Assembly: GCA_964019335.1 (NCBI GenBank)
Contig: OZ025668.1
Coordinates: 638,525 to 702,524, forward strand
Direction: 5' to 3'
From: Diplonema japonicum
Lineage: Eukaryota; Protista; Euglenozoa: Diplonemea
Length of the DNA: 64,000 nt
The position numbers were made by a program, and so were the translations under genes. Under the pieces are notes generated by a model. It made no database searches, was not told where the DNA came from, and worked only from the letters and a program-made list of their open reading frames with translations. This document shows, piece by piece, positions 5,240-64,000 of the stretch (the first letter of the stretch is position 1; each line of letters begins with the position of its first letter).

Positions 5240-5316
5240 CTCAAAAGGGATGCCTGTTTCTCTAAGTGAGTAACTGACCAACGTGTAAAAAATATTATAA
5301 AAAGAAGTAAAAAATA

Positions 5317-6201: not shown

Positions 6202-6434
6202 GTGCCCTCTGGCTTCCCCCTTTTAGTATAGTGCTACAATCGGACAGAAGGGAACTTGGAGGTGCGGCGAGAAGTTGTGCTCCACACTGCACGGCTGGTG
6301 GGTCCCATTAACGAACGACTTTGCTCTTGCAAAAAAAAAATGAAAAAGGAGCCACTCCAAAGAACGAACACTGAAGGAAAGTAACTCTTGGAGAAGAAAG
6401 AAAAGACTAAAAAAAAAATGCAATATGGTGTTGC

Positions 6435-6766
6435 TCATTCTGGTGTGTCTTTGACTGGATCGCGAGCGATTACGAGCGTATGGCCTGCGTGTGTGTGTGT
6501 GTAAAGGAAGTCGTACCATGTTCTTTTCTAAGGAATATTGTTCGCTGGTCCGTGGAGATGCACACCACCCCTGGTTCCCTATTAGGAGCCAGGCTCGCCG
6601 CTGCCGTAGCCAAACTACTCATCATTTCCTCCTTTCCGATGGGCCCCATGCCCGCCCGATTCTTTCTTGCAAGCAGCAGCCCGCAAGGGTCCACCAACGC
6701 CGCCCCCTGCACGCTCGCGTCGGAGGTAATAATATTCTGCAGCGAATCCTTCAACCCTGACTCCAT
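6435..6766 (-). CDS. LAMTOR5: Ragulator subunit LAMTOR5/HBXIP-like; 32-nt intron at 6485-6516
   Basis: Roadblock-like sequence VQGAALVDPCGLLL...SLATAAASL...VVCIST; removing GTACGA...CGCAG restores EHGHTLVIARD...PE*. Confidence 0.7.
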
Positions 6767-6945
6767 CTTGTGTCCTGCGGTGGTGGTAAAGGGATAGCAA
6801 CAACTCAACAAGTATTTTAGAAAGAAAAACAAAAAACGGTTTATAATTTCCTTCCCTTTTTTTTTTGTCTGTTAAAAATAAATAAAGAAAATAAAAGAAA
6901 AAAACACTACACCCTGCCCCCCGCCTCGTATGGTGTAAAGTGCTG

Positions 6946-7773
6946 CTACATGTCGACAGCCAACTGCCGCCTCACTTCGCTCATGACGCAGTGGAGGACT
7001 TTGCTGAAGCTGTCCTCTGAGGACGTGGCACGGGGTATTGGCATAAGTGCGGGTTTTGTCTCGCGTTTAAATTCGCTTTTCGGTTCGAGCATGGGCATGG
7101 GCATGGGTTCCGGTTCAGCCTTGGCCTTCTTGTGCGGGACGGTGGGGACGTCGTCAGCATCAATATCGATGAAGGTGACTGTGGAGCGGCGGGGTGCGGG
7201 AGGGATGTCGAGGATGCGCTTGCGCACTTTCCGTGGGCTTGGGGTGCATGGCAGCGGTTGGGCAACTGGGGTGGGCTGGTCCTCGGGGGCCTGCGGGATG
7301 TCATACCGCCAGAGCTGAGGCTCCGCAGCAGTACGGGTGACGGTTTCCAGTGTTGCCATTCGTTCGCGCGCCTCGTGTGTCGAACGGTCCTTGTTGAGAA
7401 GGTCCCTAGTGGCCTTGTTGATTCTGTAGACAAGCACCTGGCGGGGGTTCTCTGCACTGCGCACGTTGCCCTGCGATAGAACCGTCTTCAGCACACCTTC
7501 TTGCTGAGAGTTCAGTAGCATCACTGTATCCTCGTCCAAGTCGTTGTCCCTTGCGAACACACTCACAGGCGGGCACAGCGGACCGCCATTCGCAGCCACC
7601 ATCCTTGCCTCAAGCATCGCGCTCGGGTTGATCGCATCGGTCAACGTGCCCTTGCTCATCACCCGTCCCCACAGCTTGCTGTCAAGCCATGTTAAAAACC
7701 TGCTCTTGGCGTTCTCGTCAACCGCCTCTAGGAACAGCGCGACATCAGCTGAGAGGGCAGACGGGCTTTCCAT
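6946..7773 (-). CDS. Hypothetical protein with two tandem ~50-aa repeats (V..F....D......L.......V.S.G......NP...L..R)
   Basis: Probable start MESPSAL at 7773 after a pyrimidine tract and AG; the longer ORF call runs into homopolymer DNA. Confidence 0.6.
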   Translation of the reverse strand: MESPSALSADVALFLEAVDENAKSRFLTWLDSKLWGRVMSKGTLTDAINPSAMLEARMVAANGGPLCPPVSVFARDNDLDEDTVMLLNSQQEGVLKTVLSQGNVRSAENPRQVLVYRINKATRDLLNKDRSTHEARERMATLETVTRTAAEPQLWRYDIPQAPEDQPTPVAQPLPCTPSPRKVRKRILDIPPAPRRSTVTFIDIDADDVPTVPHKKAKAEPEPMPMPMLEPKSEFKRETKPALMPIPRATSSEDSFSKVLHCVMSEVRRQLAVDM

Positions 7774-8963
7774 CACCTGGTCGGTCGTGAAGGCAGGTAG
7801 AGAGTTGACGGAAAGAAGAAGGAAAACAGAGCAATGAAGGAGAAAAAAAAGGGGGGGGGATGGACGTTTGTAAAGAAAAAGGGGGGTGGATAAAAAAGCA
7901 GGGGGATAAAAAAAAATGTCGTTGTAAATATATTTTGGCAAAAGAGATGGATAAGACCGGAGGCCGGAGGTGGGGTATTCCTGCGTAAGGGTTACGAATA
8001 GACCCCGCGCCCCTGAGGTGACAGAACTCATTGCAGCATATATTTTCAAATGATGGTACAGAAAAAAAAAAAAAAAAAAAAGAAGAAGAAAGCCCGGTGA
8101 AATGGTCCTTTTTTTATTTATTTTTTTTACAGCTTTCTTATCAAAAAAAAAAAAAAACTTTTGTGTGATGATCATCAAATTGGCATTGTAGAAAGAGGGG
8201 ATGAGAACAAAACGAAGATGAGGGCGGGGGCGGCTTCTTTTTTTTTCTTTTTTGAAGTAACCCAGCACACTCATGCACCTACATCTTATCCAGTAGCAAC
8301 TGTTACATGAAAGATACCTAAAGAAGAAATGTGGTGTAAGTCTGTAGACAGACTAACAAGCCGATACTCTTCTGTTTTAGGGGAAATGAACAAGGAGAGA
8401 GGCTGCAAGAGGGGGGGGGGGGGGGGGGGTAAGGGATAGGAATGGAGGAGACGCCGAGTTCAGCAATCCTACTACACTTATTTAAAAAGAGAAGAAAAAA
8501 TACACCCCCCCCTGCCATTTAAACCCACTTCCTTTCCTACACCACTCCCAATACCCCATGAAAAAAAAAAGAAATTCATGTTTGTTACTTTATTTTTGTT
8601 AAGACTGCACCCAGAATACAAAAAGCTTTTTTTTTTATCCGAACCTCAACCTCTTACCCAATGAAACCCAGAGGAGTGAGGGAGAAAAGAAAAAAAAGGG
8701 GGGGATGAGGGGGGGGGGGGGGGGGGGAAGAGACAAAAAAAACCGCCTGATCCTTTGAAGAGAAGTGCGAGATAAAAAAAAGGGGGTTTTTTGTCAGGTA
8801 TATCACGAGGGGAGGGGACATAAAACCCCATTTCCTGGCCCTCCTGTCTCCCTGAATAAACCTCCTCTTTAGGTAACCCTCCAGTGGCAATCGAAGCGAA
8901 GGGAAAGGGAATAAAAAACACTTGGGGGGGGGGGGGGGGGGGGATCTTATAAATTTACGGCTT

Positions 8964-9119
8964 TTAAACACCTTCCTCCTTATCATTCGAGCGATAGGCA
9001 TCAATGATATCTTGGACGAAAGTTTGATTTTGCGTTCGGGTGTAGATGGTTTGCGGATTAAGGAAGTCCTGGTTGTCGAAAATGATGCACATGTCAGATC
9101 TGTTGTTGTTGTTGGTAAT

Positions 9120-9154
<35 letters not shown>

Positions 9155-10209
9155 CTTCTTTCCCCCCCACACCTTGTAGGGTCCATGAAGTATGTGATTG
9201 CGCTCATCGCGGACTCCCACTTCTTCCACGTCCCATCGTTCCACCTCCCGTTCTCATGTGCCCTGTTCAATGCTCTAGCACGTGCTTCCTTGTACGACAC
9301 CACAAGGCCGATCACGTCCACACGGTAGCCTTGCGCACGGACATCTTCGACTTCCTTCTTCAGCTTCTCCATATTGGAGCCTGTGCTGGGCAGAATGATA
9401 TTCTTCTTCTCCGATATGGCGTGTTCTAAGAACCGTTTTTTCAGCTTCCGTGTGTAGGGCAGCAGCACGTTGAGCGCCTCTCTGTACCCTGTGGTCTTGT
9501 CGTTGTTCAGTACCGACATCCACCCCTCGTGCTTGTTCCTGAATTCATCGCCATCTATCTCCACGTACTCGTCCAGTTTGATCTGTAGCATCTCTTCTGT
9601 TTTTGGCCGCACTGCCGACTTCCCGGCTGCTGCCGGGCCTATCACAAAGATCGCTCTGGGGTCGATGTCTGTCTGCGGTGGTGCTGAGTTTAAATGAATC
9701 GCCTCCTCGATCGACAGCACCTCCTCTGTGGTGAACTCCCTGTCCACCTTCTGTCTTACGTCTTCGGGCATCTTGTCCTGCCACACTCGGCCTGGTAGGC
9801 ATTTTTTCGTTTTGAAGTCCCAATATATATTCCCGCACGGGTGGTTCACACATGCATGCAAGCCATTGATTGACGACAGCCCCGCCAGTAGTGCGTGGTA
9901 CGCCTTCACCTGCTCCTCTGTTATGAGGTCCTCTGGGCGTTTTGATGTCGACTTCCACACCGACATGGCGTCCTCGTTCTCCCTCCGCGACGCCAGAGCC
10001 AACGAGGTCATCCTCTTCACAGCGAACCACTTCCCCCTTGTGCTGCCTTGCTTGCCCTCCTCGTCGTTGTACCCTTTCCTCCCGCTGCCCCCCACGCTTG
10101 CCGATAGCCTTCTGTCATCTTCTTTCTCACCGAAGTCCGTTTTCTTCACCGGTAGGGTCTGCACTACCTCGTCTTTGCTTTTTTCCTGCACTGGGACTTT
10201 GAATTTCAT
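8964..10209 (-). CDS. Zeta-toxin-like P-loop kinase; 73-nt intron at 9100-9172
   Basis: Walker A GPAAAGKS, IDGDEFR, ARARALNRAHENGR; splicing joins DPTR to SDMCIIFDN. Confidence 0.8.
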
Positions 10210-10349
10210 ATTCCCCTCCCCCCCCTCCCCTGGCTTACTCCCTGCGGTGTCTGCTTGCAGACTGTGAGAAAATATCAGCAATAGCAGACCATGGGCAAGA
10301 GCGCAAGAGGCGCTTTATGACGAAATCAAATATATTGTACAGTGAGCTT

Positions 10350-48836: not shown

Positions 48837-49248
48837 GAGAACCGTTCAGCTGGAGGAGCTTGAGAGCTCAGAAGTGGTTTCAGAGCTTGAGGAGCTTGTG
48901 ACAGCTGACCCTGAGCTGGTTCTGGTGGTGGAGGTGGGGAACTCGCCAGCTGTCGAAGTCTTGTCCATGAAGACGATGGTCCTTCCTTCCGGACTTCGGT
49001 TCCTCGTTGTCACCGACTCCATAGGCTGTGTTACAAGGATAGGCTCTTGGTTTCTTGAAGAGTGTGACCACCTGACGTCTGTTGATCTCATCCTCCCCAA
49101 TGTTTCCACCATTGATGAAAATCTTTTATATGAGTGCAAAAAACTAGAAACCATCAACTTGAATGCGATGACCAATCTTTCTTCCATTGGTGATGGCTTC
49201 TTGTTTGGGTGCGAAAAACTAGAAACCATCGACTTGAATGCGATGACC
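48837..49248 (+). pseudogene. Partial duplicate of the UBL-LRR gene
   Basis: Near-identical to ~49828-50236; lacks the start and ubiquitin-like domain; breaks off in the second 72-bp repeat. Confidence 0.85.
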
Positions 49249-49564
49249 GGAACGCATCACTCGACTTCGCAAGACGCTCACAGCCTCGATTGGGATGAAA
49301 GCAATGCTCCAGAAGGGGAGTATTAACAGATAGACCCCCCCCTCCCATAGGGCGGCCCTCTAGCGGGGGCTTGTCCTGTACTCTGAGTTTAATAAATAGT
49401 TATTCGTCACCTTTTTCTTAAGATGTTCGTTTCACAGTAGGTTTTTTTATTTTCTGAGGTTCTTCTTCTTCATTTGACTCCTGCAGCCTTTGAGACAAAG
49501 CACACAGGGAAAATACATTAGAAAAAAAGAAAAAGAAAGAAAAAAAAAACAATATTAAAACAAC

Positions 49565-51904
49565 ATGAATGGAAAGAGAGAGGGATCAGGTGAAGAGGTG
49601 AACGATATGACAGTGTTCGTGAAGACGGGAGGCGGGGTTCACGATGTGGAAGTGTCGGGGAAGGAGACGGTGGGGATCCTGTACAAGAAGGCGGGTTGTG
49701 CTGCTTGTTTACTCGAAGGCAAGTTCGAACTGGTTTGGGAGGGAGAGGTCCTGGACAGGAACGGGGGTGAAGATATCCAGGAACTCGGGCTCGTGGAGGG
49801 CAGCGTGGTCCATGTGGAGGCGAAGATGAGAACCGTTCAGCTGGAAGAGCTTGAGAGCTCAGAAGTGGTTTCAGAGCTTGAGGAGCTTGTGACAGCTGAC
49901 CCTGAGCTGGTTCTGGTGGTGGAGGTGGGGAACTCGCCAGCTGTCGAAGTCTTGTCCATGAAGACGACGGTCCTTCCTTCTGGACTTCGGTTCCTCGTTG
50001 TCACCGACTCCATAGGCTGTGTTACAAGGATAGGCTCTGGGTTTCTTGAAGAGTGCGACCACCTGACGTCTGTTGATCTCATCCTCCCCAATGTTTCCAC
50101 CATTGATGAAAATCTTTTATATGAGTGCAAAAAACTAGAAACCATCAACTTGAATGCGATGACCAATCTTTCTTCCATTGGTAATCGCTTCTTGTTTAGG
50201 TGCGAAAAACTAGAAACCATCAACTTGAATGCGATGACCAATCTTTCTTCTATTGGTGATTACTTCTTGTCTGGGTGCAAAAAACTAGAAACCATCAACT
50301 TGAATGCTATGACCAATCTTTCTTCTATTGGTGATTACTTCTTGTCTGGGTGCAAACAACTAGAAACCATCAACTTGAATGCGATGACCAATCTTTCTTC
50401 TATTGGTGATTACTTCTTGTCTGGGTGCAAAAAACTAGAAACCATCAACTTGAATGCTATGACCAATCTTTCTTCTATTGGTGATTACTTCTTGTATGGG
50501 CGCGTTAAACTAGAAACCATCAACTTGAATGCGATGACCAATCTTTCTTCCATTGGTGATTACTTCTTGTCTGGGTGCAAAAAACTAGAAGCCATCAACT
50601 TGAATGCGATGACCAATCTTTCTTCTATTGGTGATTACTTCTTGTCTGGGTGCAAAAAACTAGAAACCATCAACTTGAATGCGATGACCAATCTTTCTTC
50701 TATTGGTGATTACTTCTTGTCTGGGTGCGAAAAACTAGAAACCATCGACTTGAATGCGATGACCAATCTTTCTTCTATTGGTGATGGCTTCTTGTATGGG
50801 TGCGTTAAACTAGAAACCATCAACTTGAATGCGATGACCAATCTTTCTTCTATTGGTGATTACTTCTTGTCTGGGTGCGAAAAACTAGAAACCATCGACT
50901 TGAATGCGATGACCAATCTTTCTTCTATTGGTGATTACTTCTTGTCTGGGTGTAAAAAACTAGAAACCATCAACTTGAATGCGATGACCAATCTTTCTTC
51001 TATTGGTGATTACTTCTTGTCTGGGTGCAAAAAACTAGAAACCATCAACTTGGATGCGATGACCAATCTTTCTTCTATTGGTCGTTACTTCTTGTTTGGG
51101 TGCAGAAAACTAGAAACCATCAACTTGAATGCGATGACCAATCTTTCTTCCATTGGTAATGGCTTCTTGGAAGCGTGCGTAAAACTAGAAACCATCGACT
51201 TGAATGCGATGACCAATCTTTCTTCTATTGGTCATTGCTTCTTGTATGGGTGCGTAAAACTAGAAACCATCGACTTGAATGCGATGACCAATCTTTCTTC
51301 TATTGGTCATTGCTTCTTGTATGGGTGCGTAAAACTAGAAACCATCGACTTGAATGCGATGACCAATCTTTCTTCCATTGGTAATCGCTTCTTGTTTAGG
51401 TGCGAAAAACTAGAAACCATCGACTTGAATGCGATGACCAATCTTTCTTCTATTGGTGATTACTTCTTGTGTGAGTTCGTAAAACTAGAAACCATCAACT
51501 TGAATGCGATGACCAATCTTTCTTCTATTGGTCGTTACTTCTTGTTTGGGTGCAGAAAACTAGAAACCATCAACTTGAATGCGATGACCAATCTTTCTTC
51601 CATTGGTGATGGCTTCTTGTTTGGGTGCGAAAAACTAGAAACCATCGACTTGAATGCGATGACCAATCTTTCTTCTACTGGTGATAGCTTCTTGGAAGGG
51701 TGCAAAAAGCTAGAAACCATCAACTTGAATGCGATGACCAATCTTTCTTCCATTGGTGATCGATTCTTGTTTGGGTGCGAAAAACTAGAAACCATCGACT
51801 TGAATACGTTGACCAATCTTTCTTCCATTGGTGATGGCTTCTTGGAGGGGTGCGTAAAACTAGAATCTGTCGACTTGAATTTAAAAAGAAAAGTCGGTGT
51901 TTAG
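49565..51904 (+). CDS. Ubiquitin-like domain + BspA/TpLRR-type leucine-rich repeat protein
   Basis: N-terminal MTVFVKT...ETVG.L...LVWEGEVL...LGLVEGSVVHV; ~24 x 24-aa LRR CxKLETIxLNAMTNLSSIGxxFLxx. Confidence 0.9.
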   Translation: MNGKREGSGEEVNDMTVFVKTGGGVHDVEVSGKETVGILYKKAGCAACLLEGKFELVWEGEVLDRNGGEDIQELGLVEGSVVHVEAKMRTVQLEELESSEVVSELEELVTADPELVLVVEVGNSPAVEVLSMKTTVLPSGLRFLVVTDSIGCVTRIGSGFLEECDHLTSVDLILPNVSTIDENLLYECKKLETINLNAMTNLSSIGNRFLFRCEKLETINLNAMTNLSSIGDYFLSGCKKLETINLNAMTNLSSIGDYFLSGCKQLETINLNAMTNLSSIGDYFLSGCKKLETINLNAMTNLSSIGDYFLYGRVKLETINLNAMTNLSSIGDYFLSGCKKLEAINLNAMTNLSSIGDYFLSGCKKLETINLNAMTNLSSIGDYFLSGCEKLETIDLNAMTNLSSIGDGFLYGCVKLETINLNAMTNLSSIGDYFLSGCEKLETIDLNAMTNLSSIGDYFLSGCKKLETINLNAMTNLSSIGDYFLSGCKKLETINLDAMTNLSSIGRYFLFGCRKLETINLNAMTNLSSIGNGFLEACVKLETIDLNAMTNLSSIGHCFLYGCVKLETIDLNAMTNLSSIGHCFLYGCVKLETIDLNAMTNLSSIGNRFLFRCEKLETIDLNAMTNLSSIGDYFLCEFVKLETINLNAMTNLSSIGRYFLFGCRKLETINLNAMTNLSSIGDGFLFGCEKLETIDLNAMTNLSSTGDSFLEGCKKLETINLNAMTNLSSIGDRFLFGCEKLETIDLNTLTNLSSIGDGFLEGCVKLESVDLNLKRKVGV
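50125..51880. repeat. 72-bp coding tandem repeat (23 complete + 1 partial)
   Basis: aaactagaaaccatc(a/g)acttgaatgcgatgaccaatctttcttc(t/c)attggt core recurring every 72 bp. Confidence 0.97.
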
Positions 51905-53092
51905 AAGAGGAAGAAAAAAAGAGGAAAAAAAAAGAAGAAAAAAAAACACCCTAGCGCTGAGAAACATCTTTGTGGAAAAACCAACGGAAAGCAATCCAAT
52001 ACCTCGAAGACACCGGGGACCCCCTCCGCAACAACTCCACAACAACCATCTAACCTGCTGAAGTAGCATGCCGATCAGAAGGCGGCTGAGGCACTTGTCA
52101 TTTAATCAGAATCCCGAGATCCCATCCCTGATCCCCAAATAGAGAGTGTACCATCCTGTTTCTCGCAGAAACAGAGAACCTACCCCCTCCCCACCACAGC
52201 ACCCGACCAATCAGATGCAGCAGTGTGAAAAAAAAAAAGCCCCTCTCCCCAAACAAAACAAACAAACAAACATTTCCCCACCCCCGATAACGTATAATTA
52301 AGAATAAAAATTATGGGGGGGAAGGATACTGAGGTCTGGCACCAGCGGATGAGGATGCGGGAAAGGGGGTTGCACTGCTTTCCCTGCCAAAGCTAGTCGA
52401 GGGTGCACACCTTGCGACATATGGGGCCCGACGGCACATGGTGACGACAGGAGACCACTTTTCTCCTCGAGCCAAACAGCCCCTTACCTTGCATGACTCC
52501 ATGTAATGTTCCTCGCCCAGATGCCGTCCATCTCATCACGACAAACAGCCACCGCAGGCACCAGACAGCAACCGCAGTACGGTGACCGATTAGTGTGGAT
52601 TTCTACTTGAACAGTGAACACTCCCCTATGTGCACTGAAGCTTTATCGATTTTTTTAATTTTTTTTATTTGCTTCCAAGCTTTCTCTTGAAACTTTTGAT
52701 TGTTACCTCAAGTTAGTTACCGTTCTTGCTGAGCGCCGTTTGGCTTTGTCACCTTGATGTTAAAAGATCGACCTTTTTTTTTCTTCTTCTTTTTTTATTT
52801 TTTATTTTCTTCTGATGACCGTGGTGGTCGAGCTTTCTTTACCTCTCCACTTTCGGGGCGAAGTTTAACAAGGGTTACCGCTGTGTCACATTCCGCATGG
52901 CACCACTAAAATCGAGTCCCCCCTCCCCCTTCTTCTTCTTCTTCTTCTTCCTTTTTTTCCTTTTTTTTTCCAGTGTGTCTTCTCTTTTTGTTGTTCTTCT
53001 TTCACAAGCATTATTATTGTGCGCCTGTGGTGTGGGTTTACCTTCAACACGAATACAGGGGGGGGGGGGGGGGGGGAAAGAAGAAGAAAAAA

Positions 53093-53845
53093 ATGGCGCC
53101 GGTGGGAGCATCAACGCCAACACAGTGCAAGTACCTGCCGATTTGGCATCAGAGGATAATGGAAGAGTCGGAGCTAAGCCGGGAGAACAAAATGCTCATA
53201 TTTTTCAAGGGGCTGTTGGTGGCTCTCCTGCGGTGCAAACCGCGCAACCCCATCAGCTTCTGCGAGAAGTACGTTGAAGAAAAAGTAGAAGGCGACGAAC
53301 TAGAAACCAGCCTGTGCAGAAGCTGGAGGGGAGACTTCAACACCTACGACTTCACCAGAGACACCTCAGACGTGTTCCAAGTAAATAACCGAGATGTCTA
53401 TGGGGAGTACGAGACTATTAGAAAAACCCTCGACTTCAACTACCACGGTAACTACTCAAAAACCCGACAAGCAGTCCAAGACATAGCGGTCTCCGACGTT
53501 GTCCTGGGCGGTGAACTCAAATCCGAACCCTGGCTCGTCTACACAGCAGGAGCAATGGGGGCTGGGAAGTCCCATGTTATCAGGTGGATGTCCGACCACG
53601 GGTATTTCCCACTACCGGACATTGTTCAAATAGACCCCGATCGGTTCAAAGAAATGCTCCCAGAATGGCAGGGCTACGTGGAGCATGACCCCATGCAAGC
53701 TGGGGGTAGAATGCGCAAGGAATCCGGGTATCTAGTTGAAATCGCACAGCACAAGGCAATGGACATGGGCAAGAACGTGTGGGTGGACGGGTCCCTGCGG
53801 GACGGGGTGCGCTTCACATTGTGGAGCTGGGCACCCTTGCCATAG
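53093..53845 (+). CDS. Zeta-toxin-like P-loop kinase with N-terminal Dpy-30/RIIa-like docking motif; C-terminus missing or unresolved
   Basis: LLVALLRCKPRNPISF; TAGAMGAGKSH, IDPDRFK, ESGYLVE, VDGSLRD; the fold stops shortly before the SL relic. Confidence 0.75.
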   Translation: MAPVGASTPTQCKYLPIWHQRIMEESELSRENKMLIFFKGLLVALLRCKPRNPISFCEKYVEEKVEGDELETSLCRSWRGDFNTYDFTRDTSDVFQVNNRDVYGEYETIRKTLDFNYHGNYSKTRQAVQDIAVSDVVLGGELKSEPWLVYTAGAMGAGKSHVIRWMSDHGYFPLPDIVQIDPDRFKEMLPEWQGYVEHDPMQAGGRMRKESGYLVEIAQHKAMDMGKNVWVDGSLRDGVRFTLWSWAPLP

Positions 53846-53909
53846 GCGGGGTTGGCATACAGCTGGAGCTCGGAAAGATTACAGGCGTGCACACTGTTCC
53901 TCTGTTATT

Positions 53910-53946
53910 CCAACGATTCTAAAGCTACAGTTTCTGTACTTTATTG
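53910..53946 (+). other. Spliced-leader (mini-exon) relic, 37 of 39 nt
   Basis: CCAACGATTCTAAAGCTACAGTTTCTGTACTTTATTG; conserved euglenozoan 3' half ACAGTTTCTGTACT.TATTG, diplonemid-type 5' half; not followed by the GT donor of an SL RNA gene. Confidence 0.93.
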
Positions 53947-54233
53947 ATCCCCTCCCCCCAACACACACTGTAAAAAAAAATTAAAAAAAATAAAAAATGG
54001 ATCCAAGACGAAACGCAAGAGGAGGTGACCGTGCAAACCGCAGGGAGAAGGAACCCCGACAGGCCGCCAGGCTGCACACGACGCCAGGGCCGACCCAACC
54101 AGACTATCTGGTTGGGCAGTATGAATCCCCACCCCCACCCCCTAGATCCCCCCACCCCCCTTTAGAAAAAAAAATAAAATAAAAAAATCACTAGCAGAGA
54201 CCGCGGTTTTGACCGCCGCAACCAAGGGAGCAT

Positions 54234-54306
54234 GGGGGACAAAATCCAACTCACAGCCTTCACGTGGCGTCCCCTGTAAGTAAGCTTCGGCTGAAACTAA
54301 TGTGAG
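54234..54306 (+). ncRNA. HDV-like self-cleaving ribozyme
   Basis: P1 GGGGGAC/GUCCCCU (G1-U wobble), P2 CUCACA/UGUGAG, P3 GCC/GGC, L3 UUCACGU, P1.1 C54261-G54276, P4 AGC-UUCG-GCU, J4/2 CUAA with catalytic C54297. Confidence 0.88.
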
Positions 54307-54322
54307 AGGTACCCAAGCTGTG

Positions 54323-54323
<1 letters not shown>

Positions 54324-54351
<28 letters not shown>
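54324..54351. repeat. (TG)n microsatellite
   Basis: About 14 TG units. Confidence 0.9.
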
Positions 54352-54353
<2 letters not shown>

Positions 54354-54762
54354 CCTTGCCGGGGCTAGATTTAGAGCGGGCCCTGTTACCCATTCGCCCT
54401 GTCCTTGGTATGCCTTGATGGTCGGAGGGGGTAAGGTAGCTGGTGTGTGCGTGGTTCCCCCCTGTGCTGTGTATCCGCTTTCGTTGTGACCGTTGCCGAA
54501 TACGAAGTAGAAAAAAAAAAGTAAACAAAACAAAAAAAGAAAGCAACAACAAAAAAATGAAAAGAGGTTTTTTTTAATTCAAAGTATCTTTTTGTTTTTG
54601 ATGTTGGCAGGCACTAAAACAACCTTCATTCGCTAACCACATCAAAATCAAAATCTATATCTTGGACTAAAAAAAAAACACCCACTCTTCGGAGTTAAGG
54701 GAGCTTTTTGTGCGACTCCCTCTTTTTTGGGCAGCACCTATCTATACCTTTCCTTTTCCTTT

Positions 54763-55219
54763 TCCAAAGGCTCGCTGGCCAGATAGGCCAGCGGGGGTGT
54801 GGGGGCTGGTCCCCCCCCCCCCCCCCCCCCCCCGCCATAGGAAGATGTGAAACTTTTTTTTTTTCTGAGAAAAAAAAAAAGGGAAAAATAAAAGAATAGG
54901 GAACAGGTGCTACAACGGCCAGGCTAGATAGAACCACTTAGATTTTTTTTTTTTTTTCCTTTTTTTTTTATTTTTCTGTTTTTCTGTTTTTCTTTTTCTT
55001 TTTGAAGTGGAACCATCTCGGTCGACGTTTTTTTTTTTTTTTCTTTTTTCTTTTTTCTTTAGTGGTGATGTGTTTTTCCTGTTTTTGATTTTCTTCTTCC
55101 CCCACTCTATGCTTTTTCGCATGGACATTGGTCACTCTGCCCCTTTCCCCTTTTTTGATTCTCCCTCTTTCCCCCTCCTAAATTTTACCCCCTGCCCCAC
55201 TCATTCCTCCCTAGTATGT
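54763..55219 (+). repeat. Upstream copy of the retroelement's subterminal 3' region (matches 62551-63030)
   Basis: Near-identical from tccaaaggctcgctggcc to cctagtatgt, apart from homopolymer lengths and a few substitutions. Confidence 0.95.
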
Positions 55220-56224
55220 CCCCATTTGTCCCCCCCCTTTTTCTTTTATAGAGCCCTCTCCAGAGGGACCCTCCACGGAGGTGAAAAACAGACCCTCTTC
55301 GGAGGAAAAAAAGGCAGAGGGAGAGACAGCACGCCCGAGAGAAGGTAGTGCCCCTCCCTCTCTGCCCCCCATTTTTTCTGGACCCTCTACGGAGGTGTAC
55401 ACCCTGGTCCCCAAGGGCCGGGGGCTTTTTTTGAGGGTGGAAGGGAAAGAAAAAAAAAAACAAACAAGGAGGAACCTTTTTTCTTTTCAAACAACCAGGG
55501 GGACCCAGCACCCACCCCCACCGCCCGCCTAGGTGTGGTTGGGGCGGAGGCTGCGAGCGACGTGAGAGCACCACTGCACACCCTTGTGAGAAGACAGAAA
55601 AGAGCCCCCTGGATTGCCATGGGTGGCAGGGAACCTAAGCCAGCGCCCAAGCGGAAGAAGAACAGGAGGAGGCACAGGAGCGAAACGGCCCTTCAGAGGC
55701 GTCGGGAGAAGAGGACCAAGGCGAGGGAGGGGGCGAGGGAGGCTGCCAGACAGGAGAAGAAAAGGCACCGTCGTGCGAGGAAAGAAGGGAGGAGGAGGGC
55801 CCGCAGAGAGGAACACGAGGCCGCCCTGGAACAGAAGCCAGATGACCCTGCAATGGGGCTGAAGCGGACCGAGGTGGGAACGCCTGGAGCCCAACCCCTG
55901 GCACCCAGAATCCCGGCACCTGGGGCTGCAACCGGCACAAGGAGGCACCGCAGACGGACGGGACACAGCAAGGAAGGGGTGAGATGGGAGCACCTGGGGG
56001 CGTGGGCCTGGGTCGCCCTGGTCTCCCTCTTGCTGATCCCAGGGGTGAGGCAGGTGCTGGGGGCGGGCATCGGGATGGCCCCCTCCTTCCTGCATGCGGC
56101 AGTGTTGTGGAAGAGGCCGGGGAGCGACAGGAGGACCACCCGCAGGTCAAGGGTACAGGTGGGGCCCCGAGGGGATGAATGGTCCGCCGGGGAGCTCGCT
56201 TGGCTAGCAGTAGGGGGCACTCTG

Positions 56225-56294
56225 AAAAAAAAAAAACATTCTCAAGTCCCCCTTTTTATTTATTTTCTCAAGTCCCCCTTTTTATTTATTTTCT

Positions 56295-56333
<39 letters not shown>
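56225..56333 (+). mobile_element. Nested 5'-truncated copy of the element's extreme 3' end with ACTCTG target-site duplication
   Basis: (A)n-cattctcaagtccccc... repeats + poly(A); ACTCTG at 56219-56224 and 56334-56339; removal restores GGTL|VGSTS. Confidence 0.9.
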
Positions 56334-56338
<5 letters not shown>

Positions 56339-57727
56339 GGTGGGAAGCACTTCAGTTTGGATAGGGGGGCTGATGTCGCTCTGGGCCATGTCGGAAGTGA
56401 TGGTGGGGAAAGCTGGTGCTGACCCGACCCAGAGATTCGGACCGGTAAAGCTGAGGAAGACAAGACGCGGATCGAGAGGTCACTACCTGCCGGTGTACTT
56501 GGGCCCGCCTAGAAGCTCAAGACGCAGAAAAAAGAAGGAAGACGCCAAGCAAGCGGCGAAGGAACGAGCCGAGACGGAGGATAAGCTCTTTCAGGCCGAA
56601 CACCTGGACCCCTTTGCGGACTTGACGCTGGCAGGGGACGCGTTGCAAGGAGGTGGTGACCCTCCCCCCATGGATTTGGATGATGAGCACACGGAGGCGC
56701 AGAAGGAGGGGGAAAAAGAAGGAACAGACAAACATCAATGCCGGATGGAAGGCTGCTCTTTCCGCACCAGTGTGGCAAGCTGTCTAGTTAAACACCTCAA
56801 TGCGGTCCACCATCATTTTGTGAAACAAGAGCAGGCGAGGAACATGAAGGTGAACCTCTGTGGAACGTGTGCTGCGGCGTGCTCGTCGAACCAGACGCAC
56901 TGTGCACTACACAGGCAGCGGAATCTGTGGAACCCCGACAAACAACCCAGGGCCGGCAAGTCAGTGGACGAGATCATGAAGAGCTTCAAGCTGACGAGGA
57001 GATCGACGGAGAAGGACGGGAACTGCATGTTCCACGCCCTGGCCGGTTCGCTCGGGGAAGCCTACGGGGACCACACCCACATCAGGAGCGAGGTTGTAGA
57101 ATGGATGAAACACCGGGAGGAGCACTATGCCCCGTTTTGCAGCGAGGGTTGGGACCGGTACTTGGAAGGGATGGGCACAGCGGCGACGTGGGGAGACCAC
57201 TTGTGCCTGGCAGCCGCAGCACACCTGGAGAGTGATGAGATCCCGGAGAGCGTTCTGAGGAGACTGGACCTCGAGAGGTGCCTGGTGTGCAGGGGCTGTG
57301 TGTGGAAGGGTCAGGGGTGCCACGACGAGTGCAAAAAGGCGGTGCGAAGGGAAGGGGAATACACGACCCCCCCGCCGGCCCCGACGAGGACCGAGTTACC
57401 CAGCCTGGAAGCCATAGCCGCCATGAACGTCACGACCATGGGGTCGATCCCGACGAGCCTTCAAAGACTGTGGGGGCTTACCCTTAAGCACACTCTGGGC
57501 CGGGCGGTGAAGGACAACACAGAGGAGGCTTGGCTGCTGGTGGCGATGCTCCCCAAAGCCTGTGGAAGAAGAGGGGAGGGAAGAAGCGGGACAAGGAGAC
57601 GGAGCTGAGTGTCCAGGCCAGATTGGAGGAGTGGGAGAAGGGAAATTACATGGCCCTCTGGAATAAGCTGGAATCAGGTGAGAAGGGGGAACCTAAGAAC
57701 GACGAGGTCTCTAAGGTCGCCAGGGCA

Positions 57728-58064
57728 TGGACATTGGTCACTCTGCCCCTTTCCCCTTTTTTGATTCTCCCTCTTTCCCCCTCCTAAATTTTACCCCCTG
57801 CCCCACTCATTCCTCCCTAGTATGTTTTTGAATTTGCCTCTTCTTCTTTTAAGCCTTTTTTGAGATTTTTATTTTTGAATTTTTATCATTTGGAGTTGCT
57901 TCTTCTTCTTCCCCTCTCCCTCCCATAAAGAAAAAGAGAAACCCATGCCTTCCTCCCAGGTTGGAACTTGATTGTCTGTTTTGGAATATTTTTATTTTCT
58001 CTTAAGATTTATCGTGCCTTGTGTGTCTTTTGAAGAAAAAAAAAAAAAAACATTCTCAAGTCCC

Positions 58065-58111
<47 letters not shown>
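57728..58111 (+). mobile_element. Nested 5'-truncated copy of the element's 3' UTR + poly(A)
   Basis: Matches ~62933-63280 plus poly(A); removal restores KVARA|TELCSKGRFS; GCA microhomology at the 5' junction; no clear TSD. Confidence 0.92.
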
Positions 58112-58113
<2 letters not shown>

Positions 58114-61100
58114 GGAACTGTGCAGCAAAGGGAGGTTCTCGGCAGGAAACGAGGCGCCTTGTAGCCCAGGGGCTGGCGGAAGACAATGAGGATTGCTGGA
58201 GAGCGCTGCAGAGCAAACATCCAGAGCCACTACACCCCCAATGGGACAACCCGGCGAAGACGAAGGAAGCGGTAGAAGTCTTGCCGGAAGAAGTGCTGGA
58301 CGCAATCAGGGACTTCCCGAGGGGGACTGCTGCGGGACCGACTGGTCTGAGAGCCCAGCACATCAAGGACGCGGTGGACGGAGCTTTTGAGTCTCAAGGC
58401 TGTTTGATGTCGGTGACGAGGGCAGTCAACGCATTAGCTAGAGGCACGGCCCCTAGGGAGGTGGCTCCGCTGATGGCAGGGGCGAACCTTGTAGCCCTCA
58501 AGAAGAACGACAGGGACGTGCGGCCCATAGCCGTTGGGGATGTGCTGCGTCGGCTGGTGGGGAAATCCCTTGTGAAGAAGATCGCTCCGGAAGTGGCCTC
58601 TTCGTACCTGAAGAAAGGCGGCCAGGTGGGGGTATCGGTCCCTGCTGGAATGGAGGCGGCTATACACACCATCAGGCAGTATGTGGACAGGGAACGGGGC
58701 AACAAGCAGGAAAACAAGGTGATCCTCAAGATCGACTACGCCAACGCCTTCAACAGTGTTTGTCGGAGGCAGCTGTGCTCACAGGCCTATGAGCAAGCGT
58801 CGGGGCTGTATGCGTGGGCCGATTGGTGCTACAGGGTGCCCTCCCAATTATACTACAACGGAAAGGTGATTAAGTCCCAGGAAGGGGTGCAACAGGGGGA
58901 CCCGATGGGACCGCTGCTGTTCTCTCTGGCCATCCAACCCCTGGTGAACAAGATAAGTGAAGACTGCAACCTGGACATCCTCCAGTTCTACCTGGACGAT
59001 GGCGTCCTTGTGGGGAATGTGGATGAAGTGAGAAAGGCGTACAACATCTTGTGTGAGCTGAGCGGAATGATAGGGCTGAAAGTGAAACCCCAGAAGTGCG
59101 AGCTCATATGGGTTAGTGGCGACCTCCCCCAGACAGTGGAGGACACAGGCTTCGATGGCCTGACAGAAGAGAATTTCCACAAAGAGAGGAACTTCATGCT
59201 CCTGGGGGCGCCGATAGGATCGCCGGAGTACACGCAAGCCTTTCTGAACAAACGCTTGGACGCGCTGGAAGAGAACTTCGACATGCTGACCAAGGTGGGG
59301 AGGCAGACAGGGTACACACTTCTCCGGTATTGCAGCTCATACAGCAAACTGGTGTTTTACATGAGAGTGGTCCCAGACTCGCATGTGGGAGGGTCATGCA
59401 CAGGTTCGACGAGATGGTGCGGAAGACGATGGCGAAGGTGTGCGGCATGCAGTTCGAGAACGGGTCGAAAGAATGGCAGCAGGCGAAACTGTCCGTAAAA
59501 GTCGGTGGGCTTGGGATGAGGAGCTGCCAGGAGCACCTGCGCGCGGCCAACATGGCTTCGAGGGCGTCGACGATGAAGCTGTGCAAGGAGCTGGATCCCA
59601 AATACGAACATGGGCTGGAAGGGGGTGTATGGGGGAGCTGGCTCGAGTGGTTCAACAGGACGAAGGGCGGCATGCAGATTACACCCGACATGGTGGCCAA
59701 GGCCCCCCACATCTGCAGCCAGAGGTGGCTCTCTAGGGTGCTTAATGAGAAGGCGCTGGAGGACCTCTTGGCGAAAGCAGATGCACGCTCGAGGGCGAGG
59801 TTGATGTCGGTGTCAATGCACTATGCGGGGGCGTGGTTGACGGCGACGCCTGACTTCTACAACCAGCTGTCGGACAACGAGTTTGGGGCTCTGATCAAGT
59901 GGTGGTTGGGGGCTCCGGTCTACAAGCAGGGTGAGAGCTGCCACGACCCGAGGTGCAAGACTGAGGGGATGGACGTATGGGGTGACCATGCCCAGGGATG
60001 CGGCAACGCCAGGATTGCGAGGCACGACCGGGTGAAGGAGACCATCCACAGACACTGTCAGTGGGCCGGGGTGAGCGCAACGATGGAGAAGACGGGGCTG
60101 ATCCCGGGGTCGTCCCAGCGCCCGGCGGACGTGTTCTTCCCAGGGGGGGTGGGGGGTTCCCGCCCAATGGCTATGGACGTGGTCATCGTGCACCCGAGGA
60201 ACGAGTCTTGTGCCAACCAGGCGGCGAAGACTGCGGGGTACGCAGCGGCGAAGGCGGAACACTACAAGCGCCAGAAGTATGAGGCGGAGCTCGCCAAGAC
60301 ACGCGTGGCCTTTGTACCTTTCGCGATGGAGACCTTTGGGGGGTTCGGGGAGGCAGCAGTCTACCTCACGAAGAAACTGTCCAGGAGCATAGCTGCGCGG
60401 GCTCACGGGGACAGAGTCTCGATACACAGGCGTGTGGTCCAAGAGGTGTCAACGGCCATGATGAGATCGATAGCAGGGGCGCTGTTAGTCAAAGGGCCTG
60501 TACAGTTGGATCCAGGGCCCCCGGTACCGGACGGCGAAGAGGAAAAAAAGGACAACGAGGAAGCGAACAACGAACCCAACACTGAATCCAACACTGACCT
60601 CACAGAGGACTCCTTCGGCAATGAAAAAACCACCGAAGCTGAGGAGTCGTCCGAGAGGGAAGTGAAGGGACAGGGAGGCGGACCCCCAATCACGGTGGCC
60701 CACCAGCTGGATGCCCTTCTGGAGCAGACGAAGAAGGACCTGGACGCCCGAATGCAGCAGCAGCGAAAGGCGGAACCGGTGGAGGGTGGAACACAAGGGA
60801 AAGCGGGAGCAGGACTCGAAGCAGCCTCGCCGGGAGGAGAAGACACGGAGATGGCCGGAACAGGATCCAGCGAGAGGGCTGGGCAGGGAGGGGGGCTTGA
60901 CCCGAAGGCCCAGGAAGATGGGAAGAGACAAGGGGCGACTGACGCTGCGGTGAACCAGACCTTGGACGAGTGTCCTAAGGGGGATACGGAGGCCCAGAGG
61001 GACTCGAACAAGGGGGACCAGAGTGCGACAACTGCTACGAGGAAGATGACCGTGAGCGAATTCTGTAGGGAACAAGCTGCGAAGAGACAGGGCGGTGGGA

Positions 61101-63261
61101 GGACTCTGAAGCCGCAGGCGGATGACGCCCCCGAAGGGACCAAAGAGGGCGGGAACGCACCGAGCGGAGGCAGCCAGTCGGGGCCTGACACACCTAGGGG
61201 TGGGATCCAGACGCCGGAGGGAGATCAGCTGATGGGAGTCAGGGCACCGGAAAGGGAACAGCAGGTGGAAGTAGGGGGAGACTTCGTTCAGCTTGACCCG
61301 ATTGATGTGGTGATGGGCATCCCAATTCCGAGAGCGATGGTGCCACTGAGGGCGAGGCCGGGGGACCGACTGCCCAAGTTCATCATCCAGTTCGAGGGCC
61401 GGGTGGAGATCATCCTTGAAGAAGGAACGGACCCTGGAAGGGAGAGGACTGAGGAGATGCTTCTTGCGAAGGCCGAGTCGCTGGGTGTTCCACTGGAGGT
61501 GGCTATGGCTGGCCAGATTGGTATCGCTGGACTTGGATACATGATGGTAAAGCAGTACTTCGCAAGCTTGGAAGGTGGGTCGGACGGAGAGCGCCGCAGC
61601 CGCATTGTGGGTTGTGAGGTGCAGAAGTCGGAAACATACCGCGAGTTCGAGTTCCCGAGGACGGTCCAGGATTTCCAGATCACGTACGCGTGTGGGTGTT
61701 CGGCGGTGCAACCTGTTCGTTTCAAGGGTGGCGTGCTCAAGGGGACTCTGGAAACGGCATGGAGGGTGGTCAAGTTGCAGACCCGGGGGTGCAGACACCA
61801 CCCGGCACCGGGGAAGGAAGGGGTAGTGGGCATTGCGGCGGGAGCCGGCGCTACCAAGGTGACACTACGTGAGTTCTTGGAGAGGTGCGACGCAAGGATA
61901 AGGGCCCCAGTGGGAAAAGTCAAGGACCTGATCAAAGTGAAGGCGTGGGTGAGGGATGGAAGGAAGGTCACCCTCGACGTCTACGAGGGGAGGGGGCCCT
62001 GCGAGAAGGAGACGAGGCGCACTGTCCAGGACCATCTGCGGAAGATGGGTGTTGAAGAGGTCGACCTGCAGTCAGCGGTGGTGACGGTCCGGGGTTGTTC
62101 GAGGACGTCTCCTTTGAGAGGTACCTTGGGCTGTTGGCCCGGAAGAAGGAGGAAGACAGGGAGAGGCGGCCTGAGGTGGTTGCCACGGACCTCCCCACCC
62201 TGGAAGAGCTGAAGTGGAGCAAGAAGGACAAGAAGCGGGCCCGGGCCCGATCGGCCAGTACTGACTCGGATTGTGTGGAGGGTGGCTACATCTATCTGAA
62301 GGGTACGGGGGCGGATGGCACCGTGGTCGAAGCCAACATATGCAGGGGTGAGCTCAAGGGGATGACCGGGCCCCAGTTCAAATTCTTGGCGGAGCACAGG
62401 TTGATGGAAGAGCTGGGGAGCGACGACCTGGTGCGGGACACGGTCAAGGTGCGCAACAAGGAGAACTGGGCCCCGGTGAACAGTGCGGTGGCTTGGCTGC
62501 AGCTCGAGTCGGGGAGGGCACGGGTGGGGCCCATACCCCACAAGAAGAGGTCCAAAGGCTCGCTGGCCAGATAGGCCAGCGGGGGTGTGGGGGGCTGTTC
62601 TCCCCCCCCCCCGCCATAGGAAGATGTGAAACTTTTTTTTTTTTTTTTCTGAGAAAAAAAAAAAGGGAAAAATAAAAGAATAGGGAACAGGTGCTACAAC
62701 GGCCAGGCTAGATAGAACCACTTAGATTTTTTTTTTTTTCCTTTTTTTTTTTTTTCTTTTTGTTTTTCCTTTTTTTTTTTTTTTTTTTTATTTTTCTGTT
62801 TTTCTTTTTCTTTTTCTTTTTGAAGTGGAACCATCTCGGTCGACGTTTTTTTTTTTTTTTCTTTTTTCTTTTGTGGTGATGTGTTTTTCCTGTTTTTGAT
62901 TTTCTTCTTCCCCCGCTCTATGCTTTTTCGCATGGACATTGGTCACTCTGCCCCTTTCCCCTTTTTTGATTCTCCCTCTTTCCCCCTCCTAAATTTTACC
63001 CCCTGCCCCACTCATTCCTCCCTAGTATGTTTTTGAATTTGCCTCTTCTTCTTTTAAGCCTTTTTTGAGATTTTTATTTTTGAATTTTTATCATTTGGAG
63101 TTGCTTCTTCTTCTTCCCCTCTCCCTCCCATAAAGAAAAAGAGAAACCCATGCCTTCCTCCCAGGTTGGAACTTGATTGTCTGTTTTGGAATATTTTTAT
63201 TTTCTCTTAAGATTTATCGTGCCTTGTGTGTCTTTTGAAGAAAAAAAAAAAAAAAAAAACA

Positions 63262-63325
63262 TTCTCAAGTCCCCCTTTTTATTTATTTTCTCAAGTCCCC
63301 CTTTTTATTTATTTTCTCAAGTCCC

Positions 63326-63332
<7 letters not shown>
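63262..63332. repeat. 26-bp terminal tandem repeat before poly(A)
   Basis: ctcaagtccccctttttatttatttt starting at 63264, 63290 and (partial) 63316. Confidence 0.9.
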
Positions 63333-63365
<33 letters not shown>

Positions 63366-63366
<1 letters not shown>

Positions 63367-64000
63367 GCAAACCCGCAAACCCGCAAACCCCGCAAACCCC
63401 GCAAACCCCGCAAACCCGCGCAAACCCGCGCAAACCCGCGCAAACCCGCGCAAACCCGCGCAAACCCGCGCAAACCCGCGCAAACCCGCGCAAACCCGCG
63501 CAAACCCGCGCAAACCCGCGCAAACCCGCACAAACCCGCACAAACCCGCACAAACCCGCACAAACCCGCACAAACCCGCACAAACCCGCACAAACCCGCA
63601 CAAACCCGCACAAACCCGCACAAACCCGCACAAACCCGCACAAACCCGCACAAACCCGCACAAACCCGCACAAACCCGCGCAAACCCGCGCAAACCCGCG
63701 CAAACCCGCGCAAACCCGCGCAAACCCGCGCAAACCCGCGCAAACCCGCGCAAACCCGCGCAAACCCGCGCAAACCCGCGCAAACCCGCGCAAACCCGCG
63801 CAAACCCGCGCAAACCCGCGCAAACCCGCGCAAACCCGCGCAAACCCGCGCAAACCCGCGCAAACCCGCGCAAACCCGCGCAAACCCGCGCAAACCCGCG
63901 CAAACCCGCGCAAACCCGCGCAAACCCGCGCAAACCCCGCGCAAACCCGCGCAAACCCGCGCAAACCCGCGCAAACCCGCGCAAACCCGCGCAAACCCGC
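63366..64000. repeat. 10-bp satellite (GCAAACCCGC)n with an internal (ACAAACCCGC)n block; runs off the window
   Basis: Direct reading; variant block at ~63530-63670. Confidence 0.97.

What the first reader, a model, noticed from the sequence alone, without database searches (positions are those of the whole stretch)
53910..54233. Genomic spliced leader fused to a 5' UTR and short ORF, directly upstream of the ribozyme
Seen: 37 nt of SL exon followed not by the SL-intron GT but by an mRNA-like leader, an ATG at 53997 (61-aa ORF) and an A-rich tract, then the ribozyme. Known: SL is normally added only at the RNA level. Inference: a trans-spliced RNA was reverse-transcribed almost to its cap and integrated. 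SL plus ribozyme on one unit suggests two alternative ways of making a retroelement 5' end (capped and translatable versus self-cleaved template). CRE/SLACS elements classically target SL RNA genes, so an SL lying just upstream of a CRE element may not be chance.
Basis: partly seen in the sequence, partly recalled or inferred. Interest (0 to 1): 0.8.

Follow-up and report, generated by a model that had tools for sequence, protein, structure and literature searches.

The report
Spliced-leader relic heading a chimeric retro-insertion
In a marine flagellate (Diplonema), a DNA copy of the short leader that cells splice onto messenger RNAs heads a fragment of a multi-copy transcript, which is likely fused by accident to an unrelated, predicted self-cutting RNA and a broken jumping gene, so this is likely a reverse-transcription patchwork of a known kind, not one element with two alternative starts.

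Summary
The sequence facts hold: 53910-53946 is SL exon nt 3-39 without the GT intron, and a predicted HDV-like ribozyme lies at 54234-54306. The 'SL plus ribozyme on one unit' reading does not. In read contigs the leader/ORF (53947-54232) behaves as a roughly 11-copy repeat that elsewhere runs on into an Ala-rich frame (a 129-aa Diplonema japonicum transcript ORF; the '61-aa ORF' is its frameshifted stub). The ribozyme heads another repeat, whose contigs begin exactly at 54234 behind mixed sequences. The CRE-type element starts 1.3 kb downstream and ends in a GCAAACCC-type satellite, not an SL gene. The locus is a same-strand chain: broken host gene | SL-mRNA 5' end | ribozyme-element 5' end | CRE 3'UTR piece | CRE-poly(A), likely made by reverse-transcriptase template jumps or by piled insertions plus deletions. 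Against: no listed contig in 7 runs bridges the SL junctions, there is no target-site duplication, and the one parent allele seen has GG, not AG, at the junction. SL relics are known (dinoflagellates, flatworms); this scan noted SL-headed retroelements before in euglenid, dinoflagellate and comb-jelly DNA and elsewhere in this genome.

The parts
53093..53807 (+). 5' part of a host gene (zeta-toxin-like P-loop kinase domain, PF06414; relatives carry a C-terminal glutaredoxin domain), cut just after the DGSLRD motif
   Evidence: Pfam hit E 7e-15; homologues continue about 150 aa further; the intact continuation after 53807 is in X4
53806..53910 (+). Glutaredoxin-domain piece of the same host gene, brought here by an internal deletion (about 155 codons, 2-nt overlap at 53806-53807); it ends at the SL junction
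   Evidence: 48% identical to residues 331-360 of P0001, E 9e-8; only this frame of six hits zeta-glutaredoxin proteins; deletion junction in contigs of X2 and X3, intact context in X3, X4, X5, X12
53910..53946 (+). Spliced-leader exon nt 3-39 (diplonemid type), no intron; first base shared with the host gene
   Evidence: SL-gene context in reads
53947..54232 (+). 5' UTR (50 nt) and first part of the ORF of a multi-copy, transcribed, Ala-rich family; frameshifted in the A-rich tract and cut at 54232
   Evidence: phmmer hit P0241, a Diplonema japonicum transcriptome ORF of 129 aa; frame change at about 54165-54180; contig depth about 11-12 times that of the single junction contig, and continuation into other sequence after 54232
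54233..54233 (+). One base (T) belonging to neither side; likely a non-templated addition
   Evidence: leader contigs end at 54232, ribozyme contigs begin at 54234
54234..54306 (+). Predicted HDV-like ribozyme: P1 54234-40/54269-75 (G1-U wobble), P2 54250-55/54301-06, P3 54256-58/54266-68, L3 54259-65, P4 with UUCG loop, presumed catalytic C54297
   Evidence: descriptor hit, 0 in 10 shuffles; weak Rfam HDV-like hits; family contigs start at 54234 and a diverged copy in X12 stops matching at 54306
54307..54765 (+). Non-coding body of the ribozyme-headed repeat, with a (TG)n tract; cut at 54762-54765 (3-nt overlap with the next piece)
   Evidence: X3 record 22 and X5 record 30 match to 54765 and then run on elsewhere
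54763..55219 (+). Internal piece of the CRE-type element's 3' region (copy of 62551-63030), without its end and without poly(A)
   Evidence: self-BLAST; loose ends in X1, X3, X11
55220..63365 (+). Broken CRE-type non-LTR retrotransposon (OTU, RT, restriction-like endonuclease, long C-terminal extension, 3' UTR, poly(A) 63333-63365) with frameshifts near 57600 and 59390 and two later inserts of its own 3' end (56225-56334, with a short target duplication; 57725-58112)
   Evidence: Pfam OTU and RVT_1; best hits are D. papillatum proteins annotated SLACS, 46-47% identity; RLE motif at 59939; self-BLAST
63366..64000 (+). Satellite of 8-10-nt GCAAACCC-type units directly behind the poly(A); likely the CRE target
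   Evidence: the D. papillatum relative P0121 ends in the translation of the same repeat

Best explanation
The SL is likely a fossil of an ordinary trans-spliced RNA that was reverse-transcribed to within two bases of its cap, and it sits on a different repeat family from the predicted ribozyme, the two being likely joined only at this locus as pieces of one composite retro-insertion. Shown: the order of pieces, all on one strand; the separate continuations of the leader and ribozyme families; the host gene broken at the SL. Inferred mechanism: a CRE-type reverse transcriptase primed at the satellite on its own poly(A), copied its RNA, then jumped three times: to a CRE 3'-UTR fragment, to the ribozyme-headed RNA (copied to its predicted self-cleaved first base, plus one extra base), and to a fragment of the SL-capped Ala-rich-family RNA (copied to SL nt 3). 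The cDNA end was then joined to the already deleted host gene through one shared base. The product is dead: truncated, frameshifted, no complete unit but the broken CRE.
For: Leader family continues elsewhere after 54232 in X2 (3 contigs), X3 (3), X11 (1); ribozyme contigs start at exactly 54234 in X2, X3, X4, X12, with other upstream sequence in X1 (6 contigs), X2 (3), X12 (1). The leader/ORF is transcribed with a longer frame. X11 holds the leader behind 151 nt of non-SL sequence; X1 holds a second SL joint to the same leader, 4 nt apart. Three inner pieces lack 3' ends and tails, and no 3' remainder of the host gene, leader or 3' UTR follows the poly(A) in the window, which simple nesting would leave. 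Two pieces end at natural RNA 5' ends (cap-proximal SL; ribozyme G1). Junctions show 1-3 shared bases or one extra base. Template jumping needs non-templated addition in R2 RT (PMC8857657, abstract); microhomology joins and deletions are usual at R2 5' ends (PMC3774820, passages); tripartite LINE chimeras exist (PMC2104539, abstract).
Against: No listed contig in 7 runs bridges gene-SL, SL-leader or leader-ribozyme; in X2, X3, X4, X12 the depth at 53880-53899 equals that of the one intact-gene contig, so none was laid there, although X2 and X3 carry the deletion allele. No target-site duplication, and the 3' flank is satellite rather than the rest of the host gene; the Magnaporthe tripartite chimera had 14-bp repeats. 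In the X11 parent allele the bases before the junction are GG, not AG. The CRE copy has frameshifts and two later self-inserts, so the site was hit more than once and the chain may have grown in steps. That 55220 is the natural CRE 5' end is not shown.
Confidence: 0.55

Rival explanations
1. Same parts, built in steps: an SL-headed retrocopy landed in the host gene, the ribozyme element and CRE copies landed in it later, and deletions or recombination next to the satellite removed each 3' remainder.
For: The site is demonstrably re-hit (two self-inserts in the CRE) and rearranged (internal deletion in the host gene, another break at 53798 in X3 and X4, 5' half about 4-5 times deeper than 3' half). 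An insertion also leaves a ribozyme starting at G1.
Against: It needs a separate loss for each of four missing 3' remainders; the CRE poly(A) is followed by satellite, not by the rest of the 3' UTR piece it would have interrupted.
Confidence: 0.22
2. One or more of the SL junctions is an assembly or library chimera.
Against: The neighbouring deletion junction at 53807/8 is in two studies (X2, X3). A single-copy link into an SL hub over 200 times deeper can be pruned from contigs, and the tables were cut. A DNA assembly cannot invent an SL-leader joint from SL genes without overlap, and X1 holds a similar joint.
Confidence: 0.1
3. The SL was not trans-spliced onto this RNA; the reverse transcriptase jumped from the leader RNA onto a free SL exon or another SL-capped RNA.
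For: No AG at the junction in the X11 allele; the second joint in X1 also does not follow an AG in that allele.
Against: Essentially all Diplonema mRNAs carry the SL (PMC10161547, passage); the junction is exactly at the SL's last base, 50 nt before the ATG; the family is polymorphic, so other alleles may have the AG.
Confidence: 0.07
4. One reading: one retroelement family carries both an SL-capped translatable 5' end and an internal ribozyme that cuts the template.
For: The two lie 287 nt apart on one strand; an RNA read through this locus would be predicted to self-cleave at 54234.
Against: Every listed contig of either family leaves the window's sequence at the junction; X11 holds the leader but showed no ribozyme cover; the ORF is cut there.
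Confidence: 0.04
5. The SL is a remnant of an SL RNA gene targeted by the CRE element, as with SLACS/CZAR/CRE1.
For: Trypanosomatid CREs insert in SL genes (PMC12278014, passage); 3 contigs in X2 show an A-run just before an SL.
Against: No SL intron, no SL-gene flank upstream, no split SL, 3' junction in satellite.
Confidence: 0.02

Closest known systems
Relict DinoSL retrocopies ('recycled' processed cDNAs) of dinoflagellates (PMC5585692, passages read)
   Same: DNA copy of the SL exon upstream of an ATG, marking a reverse-transcribed mature RNA
   Different: Here a diplonemid 39-nt SL; a truncated, frameshifted fragment inside a composite insertion, not a living retrogene
SL fragments beside LINE/LTR elements in parasitic flatworms (PMC12582326, passage read: 597 loci)
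   Same: Intron-less SL next to mobile elements, read as integrated trans-spliced transcripts
   Different: Here the SL heads a separate transcript family, not the adjacent retrotransposon itself
Bi- and tripartite chimeric retrotranscripts of Magnaporthe and mammals (PMC2104539, abstract read)
   Same: Pieces of different RNAs fused in one orientation 5' of a LINE 3' end, explained by template switches
   Different: Four templates inferred here, a CRE-type rather than APE-type enzyme, no flanking direct repeats found
HDV-like ribozymes at 5' ends of R2, RTE, L1Tc/ingi and SIDER elements (PMC3774820, PMC4035085, passages read; Rfam drz-agam-1, CPEB3)
   Same: Fold, G1-U pair, loop and J4/2 bases; element boundary at G1; J1/2 letters as in the drz-agam-1 consensus
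   Different: Activity untested; the element it heads is unidentified; it does not head the CRE here. A D. papillatum ribozyme drz-Dpap-1 is recalled only; one search did not find it
CRE group: SLACS/CZAR/CRE1-2 (SL-gene targeting) and MoTeR/FoTeR/Cnl1 (repeat targeting) (PMC12278014, PMC12857005, passages read)
   Same: RT plus C-terminal restriction-like endonuclease, poly(A) tail
   Different: Carries an OTU domain; 3' end in an 8-10-nt satellite, so it behaves like the repeat-targeting members, not the SL-targeting ones

Membership tests
SL RNA gene | SL exon followed by GT donor and SL intron | tested here: not met
   AT follows 53946; SL genes show GTA
SL-relic retrocopy | Exact SL exon, 5'-trimmed, fused to the 5' part of a transcript | tested here: met
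   nt 3-39 exact; ORF identical over its first residues to a D. japonicum transcriptome ORF
SL-relic retrocopy | Other DNA copies of the transcript lack the SL | tested here: met
   X11 record 11: 151 nt of other sequence before 53946 (run judged DNA by inference, one contig)
SL-relic retrocopy | Parent has a pyrimidine tract and AG acceptor at the junction | tested here: inconclusive
   The one allele seen ends in GG with no T-rich tract in 30 nt; about 10 other copies unseen
SL-relic retrocopy | Junction present in independent DNA data | tested here: inconclusive
   No bridging contig listed in 7 runs; tables cut; contigs drop rare variants
Chimeric retrotranscript (template jumps) | Pieces of different RNAs fused in the same orientation upstream of a LINE 3' end with poly(A) | tested here: met
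Chimeric retrotranscript (template jumps) | Whole chain flanked by a target-site duplication | tested here: not met
   No repeat of the 5' flank behind the poly(A) at 63365
Chimeric retrotranscript (template jumps) | No 3' remainders of the inner pieces downstream | tested here: inconclusive
   None in the window; beyond 64000 not readable
HDV-like ribozyme | Nested pseudoknot P1-P4, G1 wobble, L3 and J4/2 with catalytic C | tested here: met
   descriptor, 1 hit, 0 in 10 shuffles; descriptor written after seeing the sequence
HDV-like ribozyme | Reaches a curated Rfam family threshold | tested here: not met
   0 hits at gathering; 19.6-21.8 bits against 35-44
HDV-like ribozyme | Self-cleavage 5' of G1 | not testable with these tools
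   indirect only: family contigs begin at 54234
CRE-group retrotransposon | RT followed by CCHC and RHD-E-PD restriction-like endonuclease; poly(A) | tested here: met
   (motif pattern adapted from PMC12857005)
CRE-group retrotransposon | Groups with SLACS/CRE/CZAR in an RT tree | not tested
   similarity only: top hits annotated SLACS in D. papillatum; no tree built
SL-targeting CRE (SLACS, CZAR, CRE1/2) | Inserted inside the SL exon of an SL RNA gene | tested here: not met
   3' junction in satellite; SL unbroken and 1.3 kb from the element's 5' part

The most novel reading that the evidence does not exclude
The chain is the record of one integration in which a CRE-type reverse transcriptase copied four RNAs end to end, leaving one template at its ribozyme-cut 5' end and the last at its SL cap, and such jumps regularly carry SL-capped RNA 5' ends into the Diplonema genome (further SL joints behind element sequence appear in X1), giving diplonemids their own form of processed-cDNA recycling.
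Probability: 0.3. Interest if true: 0.6.

Novelty: new member of a known kind. Interest (0 to 1): 0.33.

Why it matters
It removes a tempting 'dual 5'-end' retroelement design and replaces it with a checkable record of how a CRE-type enzyme behaves in vivo. If the junctions are real, intron-less SL copies in diplonemid DNA tag retroposed RNA as they do in dinoflagellates, the stop at SL nt 3 hints at where the modified cap blocks reverse transcriptase (inference; diplonemid cap structure not examined), and a four-template chain would exceed the tripartite chimeras of the paper whose abstract I read. Such genomic SL copies can also mislead SL-based gene annotation. I did not find SL relics or HDV-like ribozymes described for diplonemids in searches or in the passages and 7 supplement files of the D. 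papillatum genome paper; that library lacks most subscription papers and the paper's main supplementary text may not have been among the files.

Tried and rejected
No whole genome is held, so no genome-wide count of SL copies. Rfam at gathering: 0 hits. Minimum-energy folding of 54225-54320 gave z 0.27 and cannot show a pseudoknot. No RNA holder listed; X5 looks like RNA by its many SL joints, an inference. Its SL joints to 54239, 55119, 55225 and 55440-55446 rest on 20-25 letters, mostly low-complexity, and were set aside. X11 showed no cover over 54233-55008; not used as proof of absence. Rejected ideas: an intron starting at 53807 (the intact allele reads straight on); 53808-53909 as a foreign template (it is the same gene's glutaredoxin part); the A-rich tract as a poly(A) tail; module 54146-54190 as a second 5' UTR (it is in the parent's frame). 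None of 123 metagenome SL loci resembled 53947-63300, and none of 10 internal-SL loci matched the 120 RT relatives. P0241 has no Pfam hit and no other relative among 1.84 billion representatives, so whether its family is a host gene family or a mobile element stays open. No look-alikes in earlier findings by sequence. No RT tree, structure prediction or covariance model was built. 7 of 24 listed runs were laid; output tables were cut (20,891 and 536 pieces, 240 and 36 loose ends not shown).

Full report
Observation. The stretch 53910-53946 is 37 nt long, occurs once in the window and is followed by AT; an ATG at 53997 opens 61 codons. Of 19 exact internal copies of the 37-mer in these 127 loci, all are preceded by AA and 10 are followed by GTA, the layout of an SL RNA gene. 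So the window holds SL exon nt 3-39 without its intron. D. papillatum has a 39-nt SL exon and essentially all its mRNAs carry it (PMC10161547, passages). The only relative of the short ORF among 1.84 billion representatives is a Diplonema japonicum transcriptome protein, which places the window in Diplonema.

The ribozyme. 54234-54306 folds on paper as an HDV-like double pseudoknot. A descriptor that I wrote after seeing the sequence gives this one hit in the window and none in 10 shuffled windows. Rfam gives no hit at gathering, but drz-agam-1, CPEB3 and HDV-F-prausnitzii match here weakly (E 0.12, 0.01, 0.57). Activity is untested.

The ORF. P0241 (129 aa) matches the window in one frame to 54173 and in another from about 54150 to 54220, then runs on as an Ala/Thr/Pro-rich stretch. 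The 61-aa ORF is therefore a frameshifted stub, and the A-rich tract is part of the parent's frame. P0241 has no Pfam hit; the family may be a host gene family or a mobile element.

Reads. Twenty runs hold part of 52900-54800, none on record as RNA; I laid 7 of the 24 listed, all contigs. Kinds are my inference: X1, X2, X3, X4 show few, mostly GT-starting sequences behind the SL (DNA-like); X5 shows the SL joined to many leaders (RNA-like). (a) Leader: contigs over 54001-54106 are about 11-12 times deeper than the single deletion-junction contig (3220 against 296 in X2; 274 against 23 in X3; a rough ratio, depth is not copy number). After 54232 seven contigs (X2 3, X3 3, X11 1) run on into the Ala-rich frame, not the ribozyme. 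(b) Ribozyme: contigs begin exactly at 54234 in X2, X3, X4 and X12, with other upstream sequence in X1 (6), X2 (3) and X12 (1); one X5 contig matches from 54229 and differs before that; a diverged copy in X12 stops matching at 54306, the last base of P2. The ribozyme thus heads its own multi-copy family. (c) Upstream of the leader: X11 has 151 nt of non-SL sequence, ending in GG before the junction, with no T-rich tract in the 30 letters shown; X1 has a contig joining the SL to the same leader with four more leader-side bases. (d) Other SL joints in X1: behind CRE 3'-UTR sequence and behind ribozyme-element sequence at 54686 (depths 426 and 445, as against 4,237-10,095 for host-gene contigs, so rare alleles or library chimeras are possible); 3 contigs each in X2 and X4 leave the SL at 53945 into non-GT sequence. 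These are leads only. (e) Against: no listed contig bridges gene-SL, SL-leader or leader-ribozyme. In the four runs the depth at 53880-53899 equals that of the one intact-gene contig. X2 and X3 do carry the deletion junction at 53807/8, so either they hold the allele without the insertion, or the link into the SL hub (over 200 times deeper) was pruned, or the junction is not real.

The host site. 53093-53807 encodes a zeta-toxin-like P-loop domain cut after DGSLRD; X4 shows the intact continuation. 53806-53910 is the same gene's glutaredoxin part in sense, so an internal deletion of about 155 codons precedes the SL, and the SL is the 5' end of everything inserted. No other part of the gene lies in the window.

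Downstream. The ribozyme element's body ends at 54762-54765, a piece of the CRE 3' region follows (54763-55219, copy of 62551-63030), then a broken CRE-type element (OTU, RT, RLE) with two later inserts of its own 3' end, a poly(A), and a GCAAACCC-type satellite to the window's end. A D. papillatum relative abuts the same repeat. Repeat-targeting CRE relatives are known (PMC12857005, passages); trypanosomatid CREs target SL genes (PMC12278014, passages), which this copy does not.

Mechanism. Shown: four same-strand pieces behind a broken host gene, three without 3' ends, joined through 0-3 shared bases or one extra base, two ending at natural RNA 5' ends. Inferred: one target-primed reverse transcription with three template jumps (0.55). 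R2 RT jumps between templates and needs non-templated addition to do so (PMC8857657, abstract); R2 5' ends join by microhomology, with deletions, and one putative jump is noted (PMC3774820, passages); tripartite LINE chimeras occur in Magnaporthe (PMC2104539, abstract). The missing target duplication, the satellite as 3' flank and the later self-inserts keep stepwise piling with deletions alive (0.22).

Comparison and verdict. This scan noted SL-headed retroelements earlier in euglenid, dinoflagellate, Perkinsus and comb-jelly DNA; those notes are unchecked and are not support. I found no diplonemid case in searches or in 7 supplement files. It works like an SL-relic retrocopy inside a chimeric retro-insertion; membership in the template-jump class is not secured because the target duplication test failed. 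New member of a known kind; interest 0.33.

Noticed in passing
L124-L127 (one 237,777-nt IMG/VR contig), matches at 1501-1537; also L049, L053, L095, L103, looser L114: A large viral contig carries four exact, full 39-nt diplonemid-type SL exons without intron, each about 15-20 nt behind an AAAA(A/T)TGA motif (resembles the mimivirus early promoter, recalled) and 35-65 nt before an ATG of a 186-481-aa ORF. It suggests a giant virus of diplonemids that hard-codes or captured the host leader. The scan noted the same for dinoflagellate and kinetoplastid leaders; search 50 and PMC13393146 passages did not describe it. Virus class not verified.
   Followed up: partly
L057, L059, L076, L089 (metagenome contigs): 5'-trimmed euglenozoan SL copies without GT inside longer contigs, before an ATG; candidate SL relics in other euglenozoan DNA. 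No RT match.
   Followed up: partly
window 53093-53910: The host zeta-like/glutaredoxin gene seems to exist as several partial 5' copies: 5' half 4-5 times deeper than 3' half in X2, X3, X4, with a second break at 53798.
   Followed up: partly
window 56225-56334 and 57725-58112: The CRE-type element has been hit twice by short copies of its own 3' end; the first has a 5-6-nt target duplication, the second none.
   Followed up: partly
window 63366-64000: Satellite grading from 8- to 10-nt units (GCAAACCC type), C-rich on the element's sense strand; the same repeat abuts a D. papillatum relative. Whether it is telomeric was not established.
   Followed up: partly
window 49565-51904 (and partial copy 48838-49250): 779-aa ORF with a ubiquitin-like N-terminus and about 23 tandem 75-nt BspA-type leucine-rich repeats, preceded by a truncated duplicate.
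   Followed up: no
window 3290-5281 (-): 663-aa ORF with a weak lipoxygenase domain hit (E 2e-7).
   Followed up: no
window 9094-10281 (-): A second, distant zeta-toxin-like P-loop ORF (18% identical to the broken one).
   Followed up: no
L002, L004, L007, L012, L021 and others; L118, L122: Metatranscriptome-like contigs with tandem, 5'-trimmed SL repeats at their ends; probably primer concatemers, not examined.
   Followed up: no
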